A DNA stretch of 64,000 nucleotides from Candidatus Sulfotelmatomonas gaucii (GTDB lineage Bacteria > Acidobacteriota > Terriglobia > Terriglobales > Acidobacteriaceae): NCBI GenBank assembly GCA_900290245.1, contig OKRB01000108.1, forward strand, positions 47,541 through 111,540, read 5' to 3'. Below the pieces are notes generated by a model. It saw nothing but the letters and a program-made list of their open reading frames with translations, did not search any database and was not told the DNA's origin. Shown here piece after piece: positions 50,182 to 57,703 of this stretch. Position 1 is the first letter of the stretch, and the number at the start of each line of letters is the position of its first letter. A program made the translations under genes and the position numbers.

Positions 50182-51048
50182 TTATCTCTTCATCCACAAG
50201 TCCGCCGAAACAAATCCCAGAAACACCATCGCGATCACGCCATTCATTGTGAAAAACGCGGCATTCAGCCGGCGCAAATCGCGCGGCGACACGATGGAGT
50301 GCTCGTAAGCCAGCAGCAATCCCACCGCAGCCACTCCCAGCCATCCGGCCAGGCCAAAATCAAACAGCCGCCCGAACCATACCAGCAGCGCCAGCATCGC
50401 CAGGTGCATCAGCCGCGCCGTCCAGAACGCAACCGCAACCCCGCTCGCCTGCGGCAGGCTATGCAGTCCCGCCGTGCGGTCGTGCTCATAATCCTGGCAC
50501 GCATAAAGAACATCGAATCCCCCCGCCCATAGCGTCACCGCCGCCGTCAGCACAAGGATCCGCGGATCCAGGCTGCCGCGCACCGCAATCCATGCCGCCG
50601 CGGGCGCCAGTCCCAGCGCCAGTCCCAGGCCAAAGTGCGACCACTGCGTCACTCGTTTCAGATAGCTGTAGCCCAGCAGCACCACCAGCACCACGGGAGT
50701 CAGTTCCAGCGCCAGCCGGTTCAGCTCGGCGGCCGCCGCCATAAACACGGCCACGGCAATGCACGTAAACCCCAGCACGAAGCCCCGCGACAGCAGCCCC
50801 GCCGGAATCGCGCGACTCTTCGTTCGCGGATTTTCCGCGTCCAGGTCCGCATCAGCCCAGCGATTAAATGCCATTGCGGCCGACCGCGCCGCCACCATGG
50901 CCACCACAATCCAACCTACCGTCCGCCAGCCCGGCAGCCCGTCTGCCGCCAGCAGCATCGCTGTCAGCGCAAACGGCAGCGCGAAGATCGAGTGCTCCCA
51001 CTTGATCATCTCCAGCGTGGTGTGAATTTTCTTCAGGATCCCGGCCAT
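50182..51048 (-). CDS. ubiA: UbiA-family polyprenyltransferase (MqnP-like)
   Basis: IKWEHSIFALPF, AMAFNRWADADLDAENPRT, GGFDVLYACQD. Confidence 0.85.
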   Translation of the reverse strand: MAGILKKIHTTLEMIKWEHSIFALPFALTAMLLAADGLPGWRTVGWIVVAMVAARSAAMAFNRWADADLDAENPRTKSRAIPAGLLSRGFVLGFTCIAVAVFMAAAAELNRLALELTPVVLVVLLGYSYLKRVTQWSHFGLGLALGLAPAAAWIAVRGSLDPRILVLTAAVTLWAGGFDVLYACQDYEHDRTAGLHSLPQASGVAVAFWTARLMHLAMLALLVWFGRLFDFGLAGWLGVAAVGLLLAYEHSIVSPRDLRRLNAAFFTMNGVIAMVFLGFVSADLWMKR

Positions 51049-51188: not shown

Positions 51189-51204
51189 CGTGACATCCAT
51201 CACC
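51189..51204. promoter_or_regulatory. CRP-type box, near consensus
   Basis: CGTGA-catcca-TCACC (8/10 match to TGTGA-N6-TCACA), 57 nt before ATG 51262. Confidence 0.55.
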
Positions 51205-51261
51205 AATGCCAAACCTCAATCAGTGGAATGATTAGCCTCAACGTTCCTGTGGAGGAGATCC

Positions 51262-51702
51262 ATGGCAGCCTCTAGCCCCCGAGAACGACCCCTGGCGCAA
51301 ATGGACCCAAAAGGTTTTGTCGGTGACCCGGAACTGATTCGACTGCTTGAACAGCATTCGGTTCCCGCACCCTGCGATGCGGATGGTGCTCTGTTCCGGC
51401 AGGGCGACCTGCCCGCGGGCTTGTACATCTTTCGCGACGGCATGGTTACGTTAAGCATGATTTCCGACGATGGCCATTCGCTCTTCGCCGCGCAGGCGCT
51501 GCCCGGTTCCCTGCTCGGCCTTCCCGCCGTCGTCAGCAATCAACCGTACACAATCACTGCGACAGCGTGCGCCGGCGCGCGAGTCTCCTTTATCAGCCGG
51601 CAAGACTTCTCTCGGCTCATGTTGTCATTCCCTCCGTTGTCCGTCAGGATTCTGAAGGTCCTTGCTGCCCAGGTCCGCAGCGCCCGCCGCGCCCTCTACT
51701 AG
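51262..51702 (+). CDS. Stand-alone cNMP-binding (Crp sensor) domain protein, no HTH
   Basis: LFRQGDLPAGLYIFRDGMV, PGSLLGLPAV..QPYTITA, C-helix-like LSVRILKVLAAQVRSARR then stop; GGAGGAG RBS. Confidence 0.85.
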   Translation: MAASSPRERPLAQMDPKGFVGDPELIRLLEQHSVPAPCDADGALFRQGDLPAGLYIFRDGMVTLSMISDDGHSLFAAQALPGSLLGLPAVVSNQPYTITATACAGARVSFISRQDFSRLMLSFPPLSVRILKVLAAQVRSARRALY

Positions 51703-51767
51703 CTCGTGTCGACCTCTCGCAACACACTTCCGGCTCGTCCCTGACCGGGAATCACGCGGGACTCTAC

Positions 51768-51783
51768 TGTGATTTACATCACA
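51768..51783. promoter_or_regulatory. Perfect CRP consensus box
   Basis: TGTGA-tttaca-TCACA in the intergenic region before the second cNMP-domain gene. Confidence 0.8.
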
Positions 51784-51876
51784 CAACCCGAGCGACAACC
51801 GATGCGATGATATCTGCGTCGCCTCAATCGGGCTCGGGCCGGATAAACTCCTAATTTTCATAAGGAAAGCAAAGCT

Positions 51877-52284
51877 GTGCCGCCAGATTCATCAGCATTT
51901 GTCGCCGATCCGGAGCTACATCAAGCCCTTCAGGAACGGTCTACCCCCGTCCCGTGTGAGACAGATCGTCTTCTCTTCCAGCAAGATGCGCCGGCAGATG
52001 GCGTTTACCTCCTCCAACAGGGCGCGGTCAAGCTTACGATGAACTCCCACGATGGACGAACGATCTTCTCCATCCAGGCGATGCCTGGTTCCGTGCTCGG
52101 CCTTCCAGCGCTCGTCAGTGATCAACCTTACTCGCTCAGTGCGATTGCCCGTGCCGAAGCGCAGGTAAGTTTCGTCAGCCGCGCGGATTTCTTCGCGATC
52201 ATGAACGCGCATCCCGCACTTTCTCTCAAAATATTGCAGGTTCTTGCCGCCGAAGTTCGCACCGCCCGCAAGGCCCTCTTTTAG
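51877..52284 (+). CDS. Stand-alone cNMP-binding (Crp sensor) domain protein, paralog of 51262
   Basis: LFQQDAPADGVYLLQQG, PGSVLGLPALVSDQPYSLSA, LSLKILQVLAAEVRTARK; AAGGA RBS. Confidence 0.85.
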   Translation: MPPDSSAFVADPELHQALQERSTPVPCETDRLLFQQDAPADGVYLLQQGAVKLTMNSHDGRTIFSIQAMPGSVLGLPALVSDQPYSLSAIARAEAQVSFVSRADFFAIMNAHPALSLKILQVLAAEVRTARKALF

Positions 52285-52452: not shown

Positions 52453-53085
52453 GTGCCCCTCGCAAGCCTCGTTATCGCCGCCGCAGCCTACCTCCTCGGA
52501 TCCATTCCCATGGGGTACCTGCTCGTCCGCATTTTTCGACATGAGGACATTCGCTCGGTCGGCAGCGGCAACATCGGCGCTACCAATGTTCTCCGCGCCG
52601 GTGGCAAAGGGCTCGCCGCCGCCACGTTTCTTCTCGACGTCCTCAAGGGCAGCGCCTCGGTCTGGCTCGGCGGCTTGCTCGGCGCGCTTCTCATGCCCGA
52701 CGTCCCTTTGCGCACGGCGCAGGCCATCGCCGCTCTCTTCGCCGTCCTCGGCCACATGTTCACCTGCTGGTTGCGCTTCCGCGGTGGCAAGGGCGTGGCC
52801 ACTGGTTTTGGAGTCTTCCTCGTTGCCTCGCCCCTTGCTGCTTTGGCCGCCATCGGCGTCTTTGCCGTAGTCTTCGCCATCAGCCGCATCGTCTCCGTCT
52901 CGTCCATCGTCGGCGCGGCCAGCTTTCCCCTCTTCGCCTGGTTTCTTGTCACCGGCCCCCGCCCCCCTGCCTTCTTTGTTGTCCAATGCGCCGTTGCCTT
53001 GCTCATCATCGCTAAGCATCACGAGAACATTCGGCGCCTGCTTGCCGGCACCGAATCTCGCTTCGGAGCCAAGAAGACTGCATGA
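52453..53085 (+). CDS. plsY: Glycerol-3-phosphate acyltransferase
   Basis: YLLGSIP, DIRSVGSGNIGATN, GHMF...FRGGKGVAT, KHHENIRRL. Confidence 0.95.
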   Translation: MPLASLVIAAAAYLLGSIPMGYLLVRIFRHEDIRSVGSGNIGATNVLRAGGKGLAAATFLLDVLKGSASVWLGGLLGALLMPDVPLRTAQAIAALFAVLGHMFTCWLRFRGGKGVATGFGVFLVASPLAALAAIGVFAVVFAISRIVSVSSIVGAASFPLFAWFLVTGPRPPAFFVVQCAVALLIIAKHHENIRRLLAGTESRFGAKKTA

Positions 53086-54089
53086 GTCGTATCGCTATTT
53101 TGGGTTGCGGCGCCTGGGGCACCGCCCTCGCTCTCTCTCTCCACCGTCGCGGCGGCCACAAGATCACGTTGTGGGCCCACACGCCCGAGCTCGCCCATGA
53201 GATCCTCGCAGCCAAAGAGAACAGTCAATTCCTCCCCGGCTTCCCGCTTCCCGATGGCATCATCATCACTGGCGACGGCGCCGCCATCTCCGACGCCCAG
53301 ATTGTGGTCTCCGTCATTCCCTCGGAGTTTCTTCGTCCAACTCTGCTTCGGGTCCGCTCCCACTTGCGCATCGGCCAGTTCATCGTCAGCGCCACCAAGG
53401 GTCTTGAAGACCAAACACTTTACCGCATGACAGAAGTTCTTTCAGCGGCCCTGGAGCCGGTCGGGCTTTTGGTCTCCATCGGCGCTCTCTCCGGGCCCAG
53501 CTTCGCTCAGGAGGTGGCAATGGGCCAGCCTACCGCCGTGACCGTTGCGTTCAGCGATCCGCAAGTCGCTTCGCTCATCCGGCAGGAATTCTCCTCTGAA
53601 TTCCTCCGCCTCTACACCTCCACCGACGTCGTCGGCGTTGAGTTGGGCGGCGCGCTCAAGAATGTCATCGCCATTGCCGCCGGCGTCGCCGTGGGCACCG
53701 GCCTGGGACATAATTCGATCGCCGCGCTCATCACCCGCGGCATCGCTGAGATTACGCGCCTCGCCGTGGCCTGCGGCGCGCGCCGTGAAACCCTCGCCGG
53801 CCTCTCCGGCATTGGCGATCTCGTCCTCACATGCACCGGGAGCCTCAGCCGCAATCGCACGGTCGGCCTCGCTCTTGGCGAAGGCCGCAAACTTCCTGAA
53901 GCGCTGGCCGCACTCGGCGGCAAAGTGGCTGAAGGCGTGCACACCACCCATGTTGCTCTCGGCCTGGCTCGCGAGCACTCCATCGAAATGCCCATCACCG
54001 CGCAAATGGAATTGATCTTCAACAAGGGCAAGGACCCACGCGAAGCCATCCGCGATCTCATGCTCCGCCCCGGCAGGGACGAACACTAA
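53082..54089 (+). CDS. gpsA: NAD(P)H-dependent glycerol-3-phosphate dehydrogenase
   Basis: LGCGAWGTA, ATKGLE, SGPSFA, GGALKNVIAI, GDLVLTC..SLSRNR. Confidence 0.97.
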   Translation: MSRIAILGCGAWGTALALSLHRRGGHKITLWAHTPELAHEILAAKENSQFLPGFPLPDGIIITGDGAAISDAQIVVSVIPSEFLRPTLLRVRSHLRIGQFIVSATKGLEDQTLYRMTEVLSAALEPVGLLVSIGALSGPSFAQEVAMGQPTAVTVAFSDPQVASLIRQEFSSEFLRLYTSTDVVGVELGGALKNVIAIAAGVAVGTGLGHNSIAALITRGIAEITRLAVACGARRETLAGLSGIGDLVLTCTGSLSRNRTVGLALGEGRKLPEALAALGGKVAEGVHTTHVALGLAREHSIEMPITAQMELIFNKGKDPREAIRDLMLRPGRDEH

Positions 54090-54126: not shown

Positions 54127-54237
54127 GGGTGCCCCGTCCTAGCTTTGCTAGGGCGGGGTAAGAATTTGCCGCGCTACTTCACTCTCTCAACTTGCTCCGG
54201 CTTGCCCCACCCTTTCGCGCCTTATGCGAAGGGTGAG
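54127..54237 (+). repeat. Two REP family A variants after gpsA
   Basis: gggtgcccc-gtcctagc-ttt-gctagggc-ggg (54127); cttgcccc-accctttcgc-gccttat-gcgaagggtg (54201). Confidence 0.75.
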
Positions 54238-54340
54238 TTTCGAGAACGTGGTCGCCCCATCCCTGCTCCCTACTCCCTGTTTTCTGGCCTACAATAAACG
54301 CAATCCACGTCGCGTGATCCTTCAGCCCGGGGGCCGGACC

Positions 54341-57300
54341 TTGCGCCACCGAACCATTCTCACCGCTCTTTGCCCCGCGATCGCACTCTTCGCCGCGACG
54401 AATTCCTTCCTTTGCCTTTCCGGCCGCGCCGCGCAAACTTCTTCCACCGCTGAATCCGCCGTGCCCGCATTGGGCCCCGAAGCGCAACAGAAGCTCAATC
54501 ATCTCCAGGCCGCCCTCCGTTCCGCGCACGCATCGCATCACGCCAAAAACGAAGCGGCGGCGCTGATCCAACTGGGCGACTTCAATCTCGTCATCTCCGA
54601 AGAAAAGCAAGCCCTCGACGCCTACAACCAGGCGCTCGCCCTGGCCCGTTCCGCAAACGACCCGACCCTCGAGGCCTCCGCCCTCATCGGAATCGCGGAC
54701 TGCCGCAGAACCGAATCCGCGAACGATGATGCGCACCGCACGTATCAGCAGGCTCTCGATCTGGCGCAAGCCGCTGGCGACATCAAGCGTCAGGCTGCTG
54801 CCCTCAACGGCATGGGATGGGTGAATGACAATACCCACGACCTCCAGAAAGGTCTGGACCTGCACAACCAGGCGCTCGCGCTCGCCCGGCAGGCCGGCGA
54901 TCTCGATCTCGAGGCCCAGATCCTCAACCGCATCGGCGCCGACAACGACGATCTTGGCAACACCTCGAAAGCGCTCGATTTTTACAATCAGGCGCTCGGA
55001 AAATGGCGCGCGGCAAACGACATCGACGGCCAGGCCAAGGCCCTGAACAATCTCGGCATTCTTGCCGCCGAATCCGGTGATCCCTCAACCGCTCTCGCCG
55101 ACTACACCCAGGCGCTGCCTCTCTATCATCGGGCAGGCGATCGCGCCGGCGAAGCCGGAGCCTTGAACAACATGGGTGTTCTCTACAAAAACACCGGCCA
55201 GGAACAGAAGGCGCTCGGCTACTTCTTTGAGATCCTTCCATTGCAACGCGCTTTGGCAAATCGCAACGGCGAAGCCGCGGCGCTCAACAATCTCGGCAAT
55301 GTTTACTCGCAGCTCGGCGAGAATCAGCAAGCCCTGGATGCCTTCAACCAGTCATTGATCCTCGATCAGAGCCTGAACAATCCCGTAGGCCAGGCCGGCG
55401 TGTTGCTCAACATCGGCGAAGTGTGGGTTCGGCTGGGCGAAATACAAAAGGCACTTGAGGCTCTCGAACATTCGCTTGCGCTTTTTGCCACGTCGGGCGA
55501 ACCTCGCGGCCAGGCCAACACGCTCAATGCCATCGGAGTCGTCTACGACGATCTTGGCCAGCCGCAGCAGGCCCTCGGCTACTACACGCGCGCGCTCGCC
55601 ATGTACAAAGATCTGAACGATCCTGACGGCGAGGCGACAGCGCTGAACGACATCGCAGGAATCTACAACGCGCCGGACCAGAAGCAACATGCGCTCGAGA
55701 TTCACAATCAGGCGCTACAGCTTGAAAGGGCCGCGCAAAATCGCGACGGCGAAGCGCGCACCCTCAACAACATGGGCCTCGTCTACGAAGACCTTGGCCA
55801 AAAGCAAAAGGCGCTCGAGAGTTACCAGCAGGCGCTGCCCATCTGGCACGCAGTCGGCAGTCGCGATGGCGAAGCGCAGGTTCTCGATAACATCGGCAGC
55901 CTCATCTCCGATTCCGGCAATCCCGATGAAGCGCGCTCCTACTTTGCTCAGGCCCTCCCGCTCGCCGCCGAGGTCAATGACCCGCTGCGCGAAGCGCAGA
56001 TCTTTCACAACATGATGCTGAATGAAAAAGCCGCGCGCCCTGCGCTCGCCGTCTTCTACGGCAAACAAGGCGTCGACCTGCTGCAACACGTCCGCGGCCA
56101 GATTCAGGGTCTAGACCCGGCGCTGCAAAAGAGCTTCCTCGCCACGAAGACCGACTACTACCGCGACCTGGCCGCGCTGCTCATCGCACGGGGCCGCTTG
56201 CCCGAAGCGCAACAGGTCCTCGACCTGCTCAAGGAACAGGAATACGCTGACTACGTCCGCGGCGAAACCGCGAACACGCTTCAGCCACTCGCCCTCACGC
56301 CAGCCGAGCAGCAAGCCAAGGTCGAATACGACAAGTCGACCGCGCACATGATTGCCCTCGGGGAGCATTGGCTCGCGCTCAAGAACAACAGCGCCCGTAC
56401 CGCGGAGCAGGAAAAAACCTATCAGCAACTCTTCGACGAGCTCGACGCCGCCAGCAAAGGACTCAACGACTACTACGCCCGCCTCTATGTCGCATTCGGC
56501 AGCAACATTGAAGCCAATCGGCAACTGGCTGACGTAAAGGGCGACGTGAGCCGGTTGAAGCGCGTTCTGCAGGATTCGCCGCACACCGTGGCGCTCTACA
56601 CCCTGGTCGGCAAGGACCGTTACAGCGTTATCGTCATCACCGGCGCAACGGCTGTTGCCCGCGAATTCCCTATCGCCGAAGCCGATCTGAACGCCAAAGT
56701 CGCTGCCTTCCAGCAGGTGCTCCGCGATCCTGCGCGCGATCCCAGGCCGCTCGCCGCCGAACTCTACAAGATTCTCGTCGGCCCGGCCGCCGCCGACCTC
56801 GATCAAGCCAGGGCCGAGACCCTCGTCTGGTCGCTCGACGGCGCGCTGCGTTACATCCCAATGGCCGCACTCTTCGACGGCAGCAAATATCTCGTGGAGA
56901 AATACTCGATCGCCACCATCACTCCAGCGAGCATCGCCAGCCTCGACACTCCGCCCAAAGTGGCCAACCTGAGCATCGCCGCCATGGGCATCTCGCGCCA
57001 GTACCAAAACGATCTTCCCGCGCTGCCCGCCGTCGCTGTCGAGCTCGACGACGTGGTAAAGGATCCGCAAGCCAAAGACGCTCACGGCCCCTTGCCGGGA
57101 ACCATCCTTCTCAACGGCGACTTTACGCAGCAGGCGATGGACCGCCTCCTCGAGCGCGATTTTTCCGTCGTCCACATCGCCAGCCACTTCGTCTACCGGC
57201 CCGGCGACGACAGCCAGTCGTACCTGCTGCTCGCCGGCAAGGACACAGACAGCGCCGGCTATCATCTCACCGTTGCTGACTTCCGCGACGATCAGCGGCT

Positions 57301-57703
57301 CTCGCTCGAGAATACCGATCTGCTTACGCTCTCCGCCTGCGAAACCGGCATGAGCGGCTCGGCGAGTAATGGCCGCGAAGTCGATGGCCTGGGAACCACC
57401 GCGCAGCTCAGGGGAGCGAAAGCGGTCATCTCGTCGCTTTGGGACGTGAATGACGTGAGCACCGGCTCGCTGATGGCCGATTTCTACAAGCGATGGGCTG
57501 ATGGCGTCGGCAAGGTCACCAAAGGGGAGGCGCTACGCCAGGCGCAGTTGGACCTGCTCGAGGGCCGGCTTTCGCCGAAGCCCGGCGCCGGCGGCAGAGG
57601 TCTCGGCGTCGTCGAGAGCGCACCCGCGCCGCAGCCGGGCCCCGCAGGCTACGCGCATCCATATTACTGGGCGCCCTTCGTCCTCATGGGCAATTGGAAG
57701 TAG
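54341..57703 (+). CDS. TPR-repeat plus CHAT (caspase-like) domain protein
   Basis: Many ~40-aa TPR units (GEA.ALNN.G.VY..LG..QKAL); catalytic VHIASHF and LSACETG; HPYYWAPFVLMGNW end; probable TTG start with signal peptide. Confidence 0.9.
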   Translation: MRHRTILTALCPAIALFAATNSFLCLSGRAAQTSSTAESAVPALGPEAQQKLNHLQAALRSAHASHHAKNEAAALIQLGDFNLVISEEKQALDAYNQALALARSANDPTLEASALIGIADCRRTESANDDAHRTYQQALDLAQAAGDIKRQAAALNGMGWVNDNTHDLQKGLDLHNQALALARQAGDLDLEAQILNRIGADNDDLGNTSKALDFYNQALGKWRAANDIDGQAKALNNLGILAAESGDPSTALADYTQALPLYHRAGDRAGEAGALNNMGVLYKNTGQEQKALGYFFEILPLQRALANRNGEAAALNNLGNVYSQLGENQQALDAFNQSLILDQSLNNPVGQAGVLLNIGEVWVRLGEIQKALEALEHSLALFATSGEPRGQANTLNAIGVVYDDLGQPQQALGYYTRALAMYKDLNDPDGEATALNDIAGIYNAPDQKQHALEIHNQALQLERAAQNRDGEARTLNNMGLVYEDLGQKQKALESYQQALPIWHAVGSRDGEAQVLDNIGSLISDSGNPDEARSYFAQALPLAAEVNDPLREAQIFHNMMLNEKAARPALAVFYGKQGVDLLQHVRGQIQGLDPALQKSFLATKTDYYRDLAALLIARGRLPEAQQVLDLLKEQEYADYVRGETANTLQPLALTPAEQQAKVEYDKSTAHMIALGEHWLALKNNSARTAEQEKTYQQLFDELDAASKGLNDYYARLYVAFGSNIEANRQLADVKGDVSRLKRVLQDSPHTVALYTLVGKDRYSVIVITGATAVAREFPIAEADLNAKVAAFQQVLRDPARDPRPLAAELYKILVGPAAADLDQARAETLVWSLDGALRYIPMAALFDGSKYLVEKYSIATITPASIASLDTPPKVANLSIAAMGISRQYQNDLPALPAVAVELDDVVKDPQAKDAHGPLPGTILLNGDFTQQAMDRLLERDFSVVHIASHFVYRPGDDSQSYLLLAGKDTDSAGYHLTVADFRDDQRLSLENTDLLTLSACETGMSGSASNGREVDGLGTTAQLRGAKAVISSLWDVNDVSTGSLMADFYKRWADGVGKVTKGEALRQAQLDLLEGRLSPKPGAGGRGLGVVESAPAPQPGPAGYAHPYYWAPFVLMGNWK

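What the first reader, a model, noticed from the sequence alone, without database searches (positions are those of the whole stretch)
51189..52284. Tandem HTH-less Crp sensor-domain genes, each behind a CRP-type box: candidate anti-CRP feedback module
Seen in sequence: two paralogous 135-146 aa proteins with a cNMP beta-barrel and dimerisation C-helix but no DNA-binding domain; a perfect TGTGA-N6-TCACA before the second and an 8/10 box before the first. Both replace the phosphate-binding cassette GE...R of cAMP-binding CRP with GL...PY, so cAMP binding is doubtful. Inference: a CRP/FNR-family regulator induces these genes and the products heterodimerise with it or titrate its ligand, giving a dominant-negative loop. 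The first box also faces the divergent UbiA-family gene, hinting at a link to quinone or respiratory control.
Basis: partly seen in the sequence, partly recalled or inferred. Interest (0 to 1): 0.72.

Follow-up and report, generated by a model that had tools for sequence, protein, structure and literature searches.

The report
Sensor-only Crp/Fnr paralogues behind conserved boxes
Two neighbouring small genes encode the sensing half of a Crp/Fnr-type regulator without its DNA-binding half; each sits behind a DNA box found upstream of all 85 related genes examined, a box that seems to mark a low-oxygen gene network in these soil Acidobacteria, so they are probably built-in modulators of that network, though how they act is untested.

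Summary
Genes at 51262-51702 (146 aa) and 51877-52284 (135 aa) are 53% identical. Both encode only a Crp/Fnr beta-roll plus dimerisation helix, with no HTH. The cAMP-contacting Glu and Arg are invariantly Leu and Tyr.

They are not remnants. The family has constant length, is under purifying selection (dN/dS about 0.1), and is confined to Terracidiphilus-like Acidobacteriaceae. It is usually single-copy at the same UbiA | gene | plsY-gpsA locus.

Both boxes are real. A perfect GTGA-N6-TCAC core lies at a fixed distance upstream of all 85 gene copies in 80 genomes, followed by a conserved -10-like element.

In this genome the box marks a regulon: 85 of 126 cores are intergenic, against 22-26% for control words. 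Targets include multihaem cytochromes, cytochrome c maturation genes, HypD, a molybdoenzyme, Fe-S proteins and a universal stress protein. The likely regulators are FNR-like, with an N-terminal Cys motif and an SRETVTR recognition helix. The network therefore looks oxygen- or redox-responsive rather than cAMP-driven.

HTH-less partners of FNR-like regulators recur across the family, often in the regulator's own operon.

The proposed action, mixed dimers giving feedback, is plausible but untested (about 0.4). A link to UbiA is not supported.

The parts
51189..51204 (.). Box 1, CGTGACATCCATCACC. Perfect GTGA-N6-TCAC core, 73 nt upstream of the sCNB1 start codon.
   Evidence: The same core occupies the same position in all s1-type orthologues. 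PWM score 21.2 bits, among the top 10 in the genome.
51224..51232 (+). -10-like element TGGAATGAT (consensus TG.AAt.AT), 35-43 nt from the start of box 1. This puts the box centre near -42, a class II geometry (inferred).
   Evidence: Column conservation of 0.9-1.2 bits at +35..+43 in 85 box-anchored upstream regions. Sequence read.
51262..51702 (+). sCNB1: 146-aa HTH-less Crp/Fnr sensor-domain protein (beta-roll plus C-helix).
   Evidence: dN/dS 0.10-0.26 against orthologues.
51768..51783 (.). Box 2, TGTGATTTACATCACA (perfect), 109 nt upstream of the sCNB2 start codon.
   Evidence: 1 found, 0.02 expected. Conserved in orthologues. PWM score 22.1 bits.
51803..51811 (+). -10-like element TGCGATGAT, at the same offset from box 2.
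51877..52284 (+). sCNB2: 135-aa HTH-less Crp/Fnr sensor-domain protein, GTG start.
   Evidence: dN/dS 0.09-0.14.
50182..51048 (-). Context only: divergent UbiA-family (MqnP-like) prenyltransferase. A conserved neighbour, not shown to be under the box.
   Evidence: Synteny in 46 of 80 loci. No conserved promoter element on its side of the box.
52453..54089 (+). Context only: plsY-gpsA, conserved downstream neighbours.
   Evidence: Synteny in 62 of 80 loci.

Best explanation
sCNB1 and sCNB2 are sensor-domain-only members of the Crp/Fnr superfamily. Each is transcribed from its own activator-dependent promoter, in which a GTGA-N6-TCAC box overlaps the -35 region. The box is the operator of the genome's FNR-like regulators, which have an N-terminal CxxCx8C motif and an SRETVTR recognition helix. 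The best candidate is the protein at G000:C116:145906-146670, followed by the one at C159:124353-125249. When these regulators are active, probably at low oxygen, they switch on about 60 promoters, including the sCNB genes. The sCNB proteins keep the dimerisation helix but cannot bind DNA and lack the cNMP-contacting residues. They most likely act back on the regulator by protein-protein contact, as mixed dimers or competition at the dimer interface. That would give negative feedback or threshold setting.

Shown: the domain content, family conservation, box conservation, genome-wide use of the box, and co-occurrence with the C116-type regulator.
Inferred: which regulator binds the box, the oxygen signal, and the whole protein-protein step.
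For: 1. HTH-less but intact. Only cNMP_binding is detected. The AF2 model is a beta-roll plus C-helix. In alignment with full-length paralogues and E. coli FNR, the chain stops four to five residues before the hinge.

2. Functional. More than 350 homologues of 133-173 aa, 28 invariant columns including the C-helix motif LxVLAAxVxxAR, and dN/dS about 0.1.

3. Box. 85 of 85 copies in 80 genomes have a perfect core at a fixed distance, plus a -10-like element. All four paralogues in this genome with readable upstream DNA have one. The homologue in another genus has a 9/10 box at -109.

4. Regulon. 126 cores are found against about 70 expected. 85 of 126 are intergenic, against 22-26% for three same-composition control words. 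39 of the 43 sites scoring at least 14 bits are intergenic (P about 5e-25). Targets are multihaem cytochromes, CcmF and CcsA-like proteins, HypD, a molybdopterin oxidoreductase, sirohaem synthase, Fe-S and radical-SAM proteins, a universal stress protein (USP) and a PAS hybrid kinase. No canonical TTGAT-N4-ATCAA site is intergenic.

5. Regulators. Three full-length paralogues carry RETVTR, and two of them carry CxxCx8C. Boxes lie before the C159 gene and before the USP-short168-FNR operon.

6. Guilt by association. In about 22-25 of 61 genera, the FNR-like gene is followed by a ~165-aa HTH-less paralogue that keeps the Cys motif. That paralogue had its own box in 16 of 16 pairs inspected. In the own genus, a 168-aa cNMP-only gene precedes the FNR-like gene in 36 of 41 genomes.

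7. Co-occurrence. Among 25 genomes at least 90% complete, sCNB, short168 and the 80-95%-identical C116-type regulator are all present in 22 and all absent in the same 3.

8. Precedent. FNR paralogues form heterodimers through the dimerisation helix (PMC5934665).
Against: No interaction was tested, and no multimer prediction was possible with these tools. sCNB is only 25-34% identical to any full-length regulator here. It forms its own clade, so it is not a recent copy of its supposed partner. Apart from the general L-x-[SA]-[GA]-E-[IVY] core, its C-helix is not especially like that of the C116 or C159 proteins. It evolves much faster (45-61% identity within the genus) than the C116-type regulator (89-95%), which is not what tight co-evolution would predict. 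The co-occurrence may reflect a single clade. The oxygen signal rests on gene content alone.
Confidence: 0.4

Rival explanations
1. sCNB is a regulon output rather than a feedback element. It would be a small sensor or adaptor that binds an unknown ligand (haem, a redox metabolite or a nucleotide other than cAMP, or a thiol signal via the invariant Cys27). It would act on a non-transcriptional target, for example as an accessory subunit of a low-oxygen enzyme, in the manner of HoxI of the soluble hydrogenase.
For: - The pocket residues are invariant but non-canonical (GLP...PY), and there is an invariant Cys27 and an invariant N-terminal DxxxFxxD motif.
- sCNB is not encoded beside a regulator, and it is phylogenetically separate from the regulators.
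- Earlier scan notes describe cNMP-only proteins as conserved hydrogenase subunits.
- The paralogue on C144 lies beside box-controlled redox genes.
Against: No enzyme gene is consistently adjacent. The conserved neighbours (UbiA, plsY, gpsA) are housekeeping genes kept by vertical synteny. They are not neighbours of the other three paralogues here or of the homologue in the other genus. The strongest conservation is in the dimerisation helix.
Confidence: 0.3
2. sCNB is a ligand or cofactor sink. The homodimer would buffer the effector that controls a full-length Crp/Fnr paralogue with a similar pocket, such as the C27 protein (ELP...PY...SA.A), without touching the regulator.
For: The LP...PY...SA.A pocket signature is shared with the full-length C27 protein, which is also the best full-length tblastn hit. 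Five paralogues in this genome would add buffering capacity.
Against: Most genomes have a single copy. No ligand is known. Nothing ties the C27-type regulator to the box.
Confidence: 0.12
3. The genes are decaying fragments of full-length regulators, and the boxes are chance matches.
For: The upstream box is only 8/10 and is not above chance within the window alone.
Against: Constant length in more than 350 homologues, dN/dS about 0.1, a clade of their own, and box cores conserved in 85 of 85 copies.
Confidence: 0.01

Closest known systems
Crp/Fnr superfamily transcription factors (E. coli FNR and CRP; S. meliloti Clr, PDB 7pza; M. tuberculosis CRP; C. glutamicum GlxR)
   Same: The same beta-roll and C-helix fold (TM up to 0.77). 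The C-helix core L-x-[SA]-[GA]-E-[IVY] aligns with FNR residues 146-151.
   Different: There is no winged HTH, as the chain ends before the hinge. The cNMP-contacting Glu and Arg are Leu and Tyr. The FNR N-terminal Cys cluster is absent.
FNR paralogue heterodimers (Herbaspirillum seropedicae Fnr1-Fnr3, PMC5934665)
   Same: Paralogous FNR-family proteins in one cell that interact through the dimerisation helix. This is the contact proposed here.
   Different: Both Herbaspirillum partners bind DNA and co-activate. Here one partner would be DNA-blind, so the expected effect is inhibitory. No interaction has been shown here.
FixT of the FixLJ-FixK oxygen pathway (Caulobacter, PMC7078487)
   Same: A single-domain protein, homologous to a pathway component, that feeds back negatively on an oxygen-sensing pathway.
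   Different: FixT is a receiver domain that inhibits a kinase. sCNB is a Crp/Fnr sensor domain whose target is unknown.
CbpA of Pseudomonas aeruginosa (Endoh and Engel 2009, listed as ref. 100 in PMC11139211; its control by Vfr is recalled from memory)
   Same: A cNMP-domain protein with no DNA-binding domain, in a cell that also has a Crp-family regulator.
   Different: CbpA binds cAMP with canonical residues and, from memory, has tandem domains. sCNB has one domain and lacks the phosphate-binding residues. The two were not compared by sequence here.
HoxI-type cNMP-only subunits of [NiFe] hydrogenases (a lead from earlier scan notes)
   Same: A stand-alone Crp-like sensor domain without canonical cNMP residues.
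   Different: Those genes sit inside hydrogenase operons. sCNB does not.

Membership tests
Crp/Fnr transcription factor | N-terminal cNMP-binding-type beta-roll | tested here: met
   Pfam PF00027, E 5e-15 and 4e-16. AF2 model and Foldseek matches.
Crp/Fnr transcription factor | Long C-helix used for dimerisation | tested here: met
   Helix 115-134 in the model. It aligns with the FNR and Clr C-helix. Whether it dimerises was not tested.
Crp/Fnr transcription factor | C-terminal winged helix-turn-helix | tested here: not met
   No HTH model hit. The chain ends before the hinge. This holds in all homologues.
cAMP/cGMP-binding CNB domain | Phosphate-binding cassette with Gly-Glu ... Arg-[Ser/Thr]-Ala | tested here: not met
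   The family has GL...YS where Clr has GE...RS. G75, L76, P77 and P84 are invariant and Y85 is nearly so.
FNR-type [4Fe-4S] oxygen sensor | N-terminal Cys cluster plus a fourth Cys | tested here: not met
   There is only one invariant Cys (C27), and it does not align with FNR C20, C23, C29 or C122.
Regulon of a GTGA-N6-TCAC-binding Crp/Fnr regulator | Conserved operator at activator distance from the promoter | tested here: met
   85 of 85 copies, at a fixed distance, with a conserved -10-like element 35-43 nt from the start of the box.
Regulon of a GTGA-N6-TCAC-binding Crp/Fnr regulator | Binding by, and dependence on, the regulator | not testable with these tools
   Needs EMSA, ChIP or reporter assays.
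Dominant-negative or anti-activator paralogue | Physical interaction with the full-length regulator | not testable with these tools
   Only indirect support: operon linkage of other HTH-less paralogues and co-occurrence.
HoxI-like hydrogenase subunit | Gene embedded in a hydrogenase operon | tested here: not met
   Neighbours are UbiA, plsY and gpsA, or unrelated genes.

The most novel reading that the evidence does not exclude
FNR-like oxygen regulators of Acidobacteriaceae may routinely work with DNA-blind sensor-domain partners expressed from the regulator's own box. Three lineages were seen here:
- a ~165-aa paralogue that keeps the Fe-S Cys motif and lies just downstream of the regulator gene;
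- a 168-aa cNMP-only protein just upstream of it;
- the sCNB family described in this report.

By forming mixed dimers, these partners would set the threshold, gain or shut-off of the low-oxygen response. That would be a bacterial counterpart of Id-type or microProtein dominant-negative regulators, and it has not been described for the Crp/Fnr superfamily.
Probability: 0.3. Interest if true: 0.8.

Novelty: new variant of a known kind. Interest (0 to 1): 0.62.

Why it matters
Crp/Fnr proteins are textbook one-component regulators: one chain senses and binds DNA. Here a sensor-only relative is hard-wired into the regulon. Its operator is conserved in every one of 85 copies examined. Related sensor-only genes sit in the operons of FNR-like regulators in much of a major soil bacterial family. 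If these proteins modulate the regulator, they add a previously undescribed layer, protein-level feedback by DNA-blind paralogues, to a very well-studied regulator family. They would also help explain how abundant peat and soil Acidobacteria tune their response to fluctuating oxygen. Independently of mechanism, the work gives a usable operator motif and a draft low-oxygen regulon for an uncultured Terracidiphilus-like genome.

Tried and rejected
- Truncated remnants: rejected on constant length, dN/dS about 0.1 and a separate clade.
- Canonical cAMP receptor: rejected, as the Glu and Arg are replaced invariantly. One weak class III cyclase-like domain exists in the genome, so cNMP signalling as such cannot be excluded.
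- Canonical FNR boxes: only 4 TTGAT-N4-ATCAA sites, none intergenic.
- RNA element in the leaders or the gap: no Rfam match at E up to 1.
- Sigma-70 consensus and terminator scan of the region: nothing informative.
- Functional link to UbiA or plsY-gpsA: the synteny is conserved, but there is no conserved promoter element on the UbiA side, and the other paralogues and the homologue in the other genus have different neighbours.
- sCNB as an offshoot of the operon-linked HTH-less FNR paralogue: the tree does not join them.
- Complementary distribution of sCNB and the ~165-aa paralogue: it is seen but amounts to one or two evolutionary events, so it carries little weight.
- Literature: four searches for HTH-less Crp/Fnr partners found nothing describing such proteins.
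- Earlier scan notes: nothing on this sequence.
- My crude gene caller mis-called sCNB2, so intergenic counts are approximate.

Full report
**What is there**

The window is G000:C32:47541-111540. Two co-oriented ORFs, 51262-51702 (146 aa, ATG, GGAGGAG RBS) and 51877-52284 (135 aa, GTG, AAGGA RBS), are 53% identical. I call them sCNB1 and sCNB2.

Each matches only Pfam cNMP_binding. NCBIfam gives only weak partial hits to the N-terminal halves of FtrB, Fnr, FixK and CRP models. An AF2 model of sCNB2 (pLDDT 94.4) is an eight-stranded roll followed by a helix at residues 115-134. Its best PDB matches are sensor domains of GlxR, Thermus and M. tuberculosis CRP, and Clr. Aligned with the genome's full-length paralogues and with E. 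coli FNR, the chains end four to five residues before the hinge, so the whole HTH is missing.

The profile-to-PDB alignment puts the family's G-L...Y-S opposite the G-E...R-S of Clr. G75, L76, P77 and P84 are invariant and Y85 nearly so. Canonical cNMP binding is therefore unlikely.

**They are real genes, not remnants**

More than 350 homologues were found, and the 120 listed are 133-173 aa apart from one 215-aa entry. All come from Terracidiphilus or Acidobacteriaceae metagenome bins. There are 28 invariant columns, including an N-terminal D-x3-F-x2-D motif, Cys27, GLP, P84 and the helix motif L-x-VLAA-x-V-xx-AR. dN/dS against orthologues is 0.09-0.26 for both copies. In a tree with the genome's other Crp/Fnr sensor domains, the family forms its own clade (support 92/93) and is not nested in any full-length group.

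Within the genus, 34 of 41 genomes carry it, and every genome except this one has a single copy. This genome has five copies. The tandem arrangement occurs in only 5 of 80 related loci. The locus itself is conserved: a divergent UbiA/MqnP-like gene upstream in 46 of 80 loci, and plsY-gpsA downstream in 62 of 80.

**The boxes**

The perfect TGTGA-N6-TCACA at 51768 is unique in the window, with 0.02 expected. The 8/10 site at 51189 is unremarkable by window statistics. Comparison with relatives settles the matter. Every one of 85 gene copies in 80 genomes has a perfect GTGA-N6-TCAC core 100-135 nt upstream of the conserved Asp codon. The flanking positions vary.

A second conserved element, TG.AAt.AT, lies 35-43 nt from the start of the box. 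In the window it is at 51224-51232 and 51803-51811. If it is the -10 element, the box centre falls near -42, which is a class II activator geometry. That step is inferred. No comparable element is conserved on the UbiA side.

All four paralogues in this genome that have upstream sequence available carry a box. The homologue in a second genus has a 9/10 box at -109.

**The regulon**

The genome has 126 GTGA-N6-TCAC cores, against about 70 expected from base composition. Of these, 85 (67%) are intergenic by a crude gene call. Three same-composition control words give 22-26%. All 13 perfect 10/10 sites are intergenic. Of 43 sites that score at least as high as the weakest training site, 39 are intergenic (P about 5e-25).

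Genes next to these sites include:
- two multihaem cytochrome c genes, plus CcmF and a CcsA-like protein;
- HypD, a molybdopterin oxidoreductase and a sirohaem synthase;
- a DHODH-like Fe-S protein, a polyferredoxin, a radical-SAM protein and a 2Fe-2S subunit;
- a tandem universal stress protein (USP), a CBS protein and a PAS hybrid kinase.

This is the content of a low-oxygen regulon. USP and kinase induction at nanomolar oxygen has been reported for Acidobacterium capsulatum (PMC11636273). Canonical FNR boxes are absent from intergenic DNA.

**Candidate regulators**

Five full-length Crp/Fnr genes were found. Three have the recognition helix [ST]RETVTR, where E. coli FNR has TVETISR. From established knowledge of the CRP/FNR specificity determinants (Arg180/Glu181/Arg185 against Val208/Glu209/Ser212/Arg213), this helix fits GTGA rather than TTGA.

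Two of the three, on contigs C116 and C159, have an N-terminal CxxCx8C motif. Two boxes lie between the C159 gene and a divergent multihaem cytochrome operon. One box precedes the operon USP - 168-aa cNMP-only protein - C116 regulator. The C116-type protein is 80-95% identical (89-95% in all but two) in 37 of 41 genomes of the genus.

**Sensor-only partners are a family-wide theme**

In about 22-25 of 61 Acidobacteriaceae genera, an FNR-like gene is followed 35-170 nt downstream by a ~165-aa paralogue. That paralogue keeps the CxxCx8C motif, the 'AC' Cys at the start of the helix and the whole C-helix, but stops at the hinge. In all 16 pairs inspected, a GTGA-N6-TCAC box lies just upstream of the short gene, at about 35-50 nt in the 13 pairs where the predicted start is clear and overlapping the predicted start in the other 3. 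Many pairs also have two boxes before the full-length gene.

The own genus lacks this form. Instead it has the 168-aa protein immediately upstream of the regulator in 36 of 41 genomes, plus sCNB. Among 25 genomes that are at least 90% complete, sCNB, the 168-aa protein and the C116-type regulator are all present in 22 and all absent in the same three. This may reflect a single clade.

**Mechanism**

What is shown: a conserved, selected, DNA-blind sensor domain that keeps a dimerisation helix; a conserved operator; genome-wide use of that operator; and association of sensor-only proteins with FNR-like regulators.

What is inferred: the FNR-like proteins bind the box; the signal is oxygen or redox; and sCNB acts on the regulator. 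FNR paralogues can heterodimerise through this helix (PMC5934665). Single-domain feedback inhibitors exist in another oxygen-sensing pathway (FixT, PMC7078487).

In the alignment, sCNB V127 and A130 (both invariant) fall opposite E. coli FNR I151 and D154. These are the positions whose substitution affects FNR dimerisation in that paper. The full-length acidobacterial proteins also lack the Asp at this position, so this feature does not single out sCNB.

Against the model: sCNB is only 25-34% identical to any regulator here, is not a recent copy of one, and evolves faster than the regulator. No interaction could be tested. I give the feedback-by-contact model about 0.4, an independent sensor or adaptor role about 0.3, a ligand sink about 0.1, and other roles the remainder.

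**Novelty**

Stand-alone cNMP-domain proteins are common in annotations, and a few have been studied (CbpA, HoxI). I found no description of Crp/Fnr sensor-only paralogues embedded in the regulator's own regulon or operon. I rate this a new variant of a known kind.

Noticed in passing
L160-L176 (for example L160:2367-3089 and L160:3167-3661): In about 22-25 of 61 Acidobacteriaceae genera, an FNR-like regulator gene is followed by a ~165-aa HTH-less paralogue. The paralogue keeps the N-terminal CxxCx8C motif and the whole C-helix. It had a GTGA-N6-TCAC box at or just upstream of its predicted start in 16 of 16 pairs inspected.
   Followed up: partly
G000:C116:145906-148510 (L175): An operon behind a box at C116:148494: tandem universal stress protein, then a 168-aa cNMP-only protein, then an FNR-like regulator. 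The 168-aa gene lies next to the regulator in 36 of 41 genomes of the genus. E. coli fnr also lies next to uspE.
   Followed up: partly
G000:C159:124353-129370: An FNR-like gene (CxxCx8C, TRETVTR) lies divergent from a multihaem cytochrome c gene and an 899-aa ORF with no Pfam match. Two boxes (125282 and 125409) lie between them.
   Followed up: partly
G000:C144:16454-21452: A third sCNB paralogue is followed by three boxes (17027, 17053, 17095). Next comes a 465-aa ORF with a CSGCH motif and no Pfam match, then a GltD-like Fe-S/FAD oxidoreductase.
   Followed up: no
whole genome G000: There are about 60 more intergenic GTGA-N6-TCAC sites than control words give, and no intergenic canonical FNR boxes. 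This is a draft low-oxygen regulon for this uncultured genome.
   Followed up: partly
box-anchored upstream alignment; about 8-13 nt upstream of the box in most orthologues: A further conserved element (consensus tTaACC) lies just upstream of the box in most orthologues, but it is not evident in the two window copies. Its role is unknown.
   Followed up: no
window 54224-57703: A 1159-aa ORF downstream of gpsA has many TPR-like repeats in its N-terminal half. It was not analysed.
   Followed up: no
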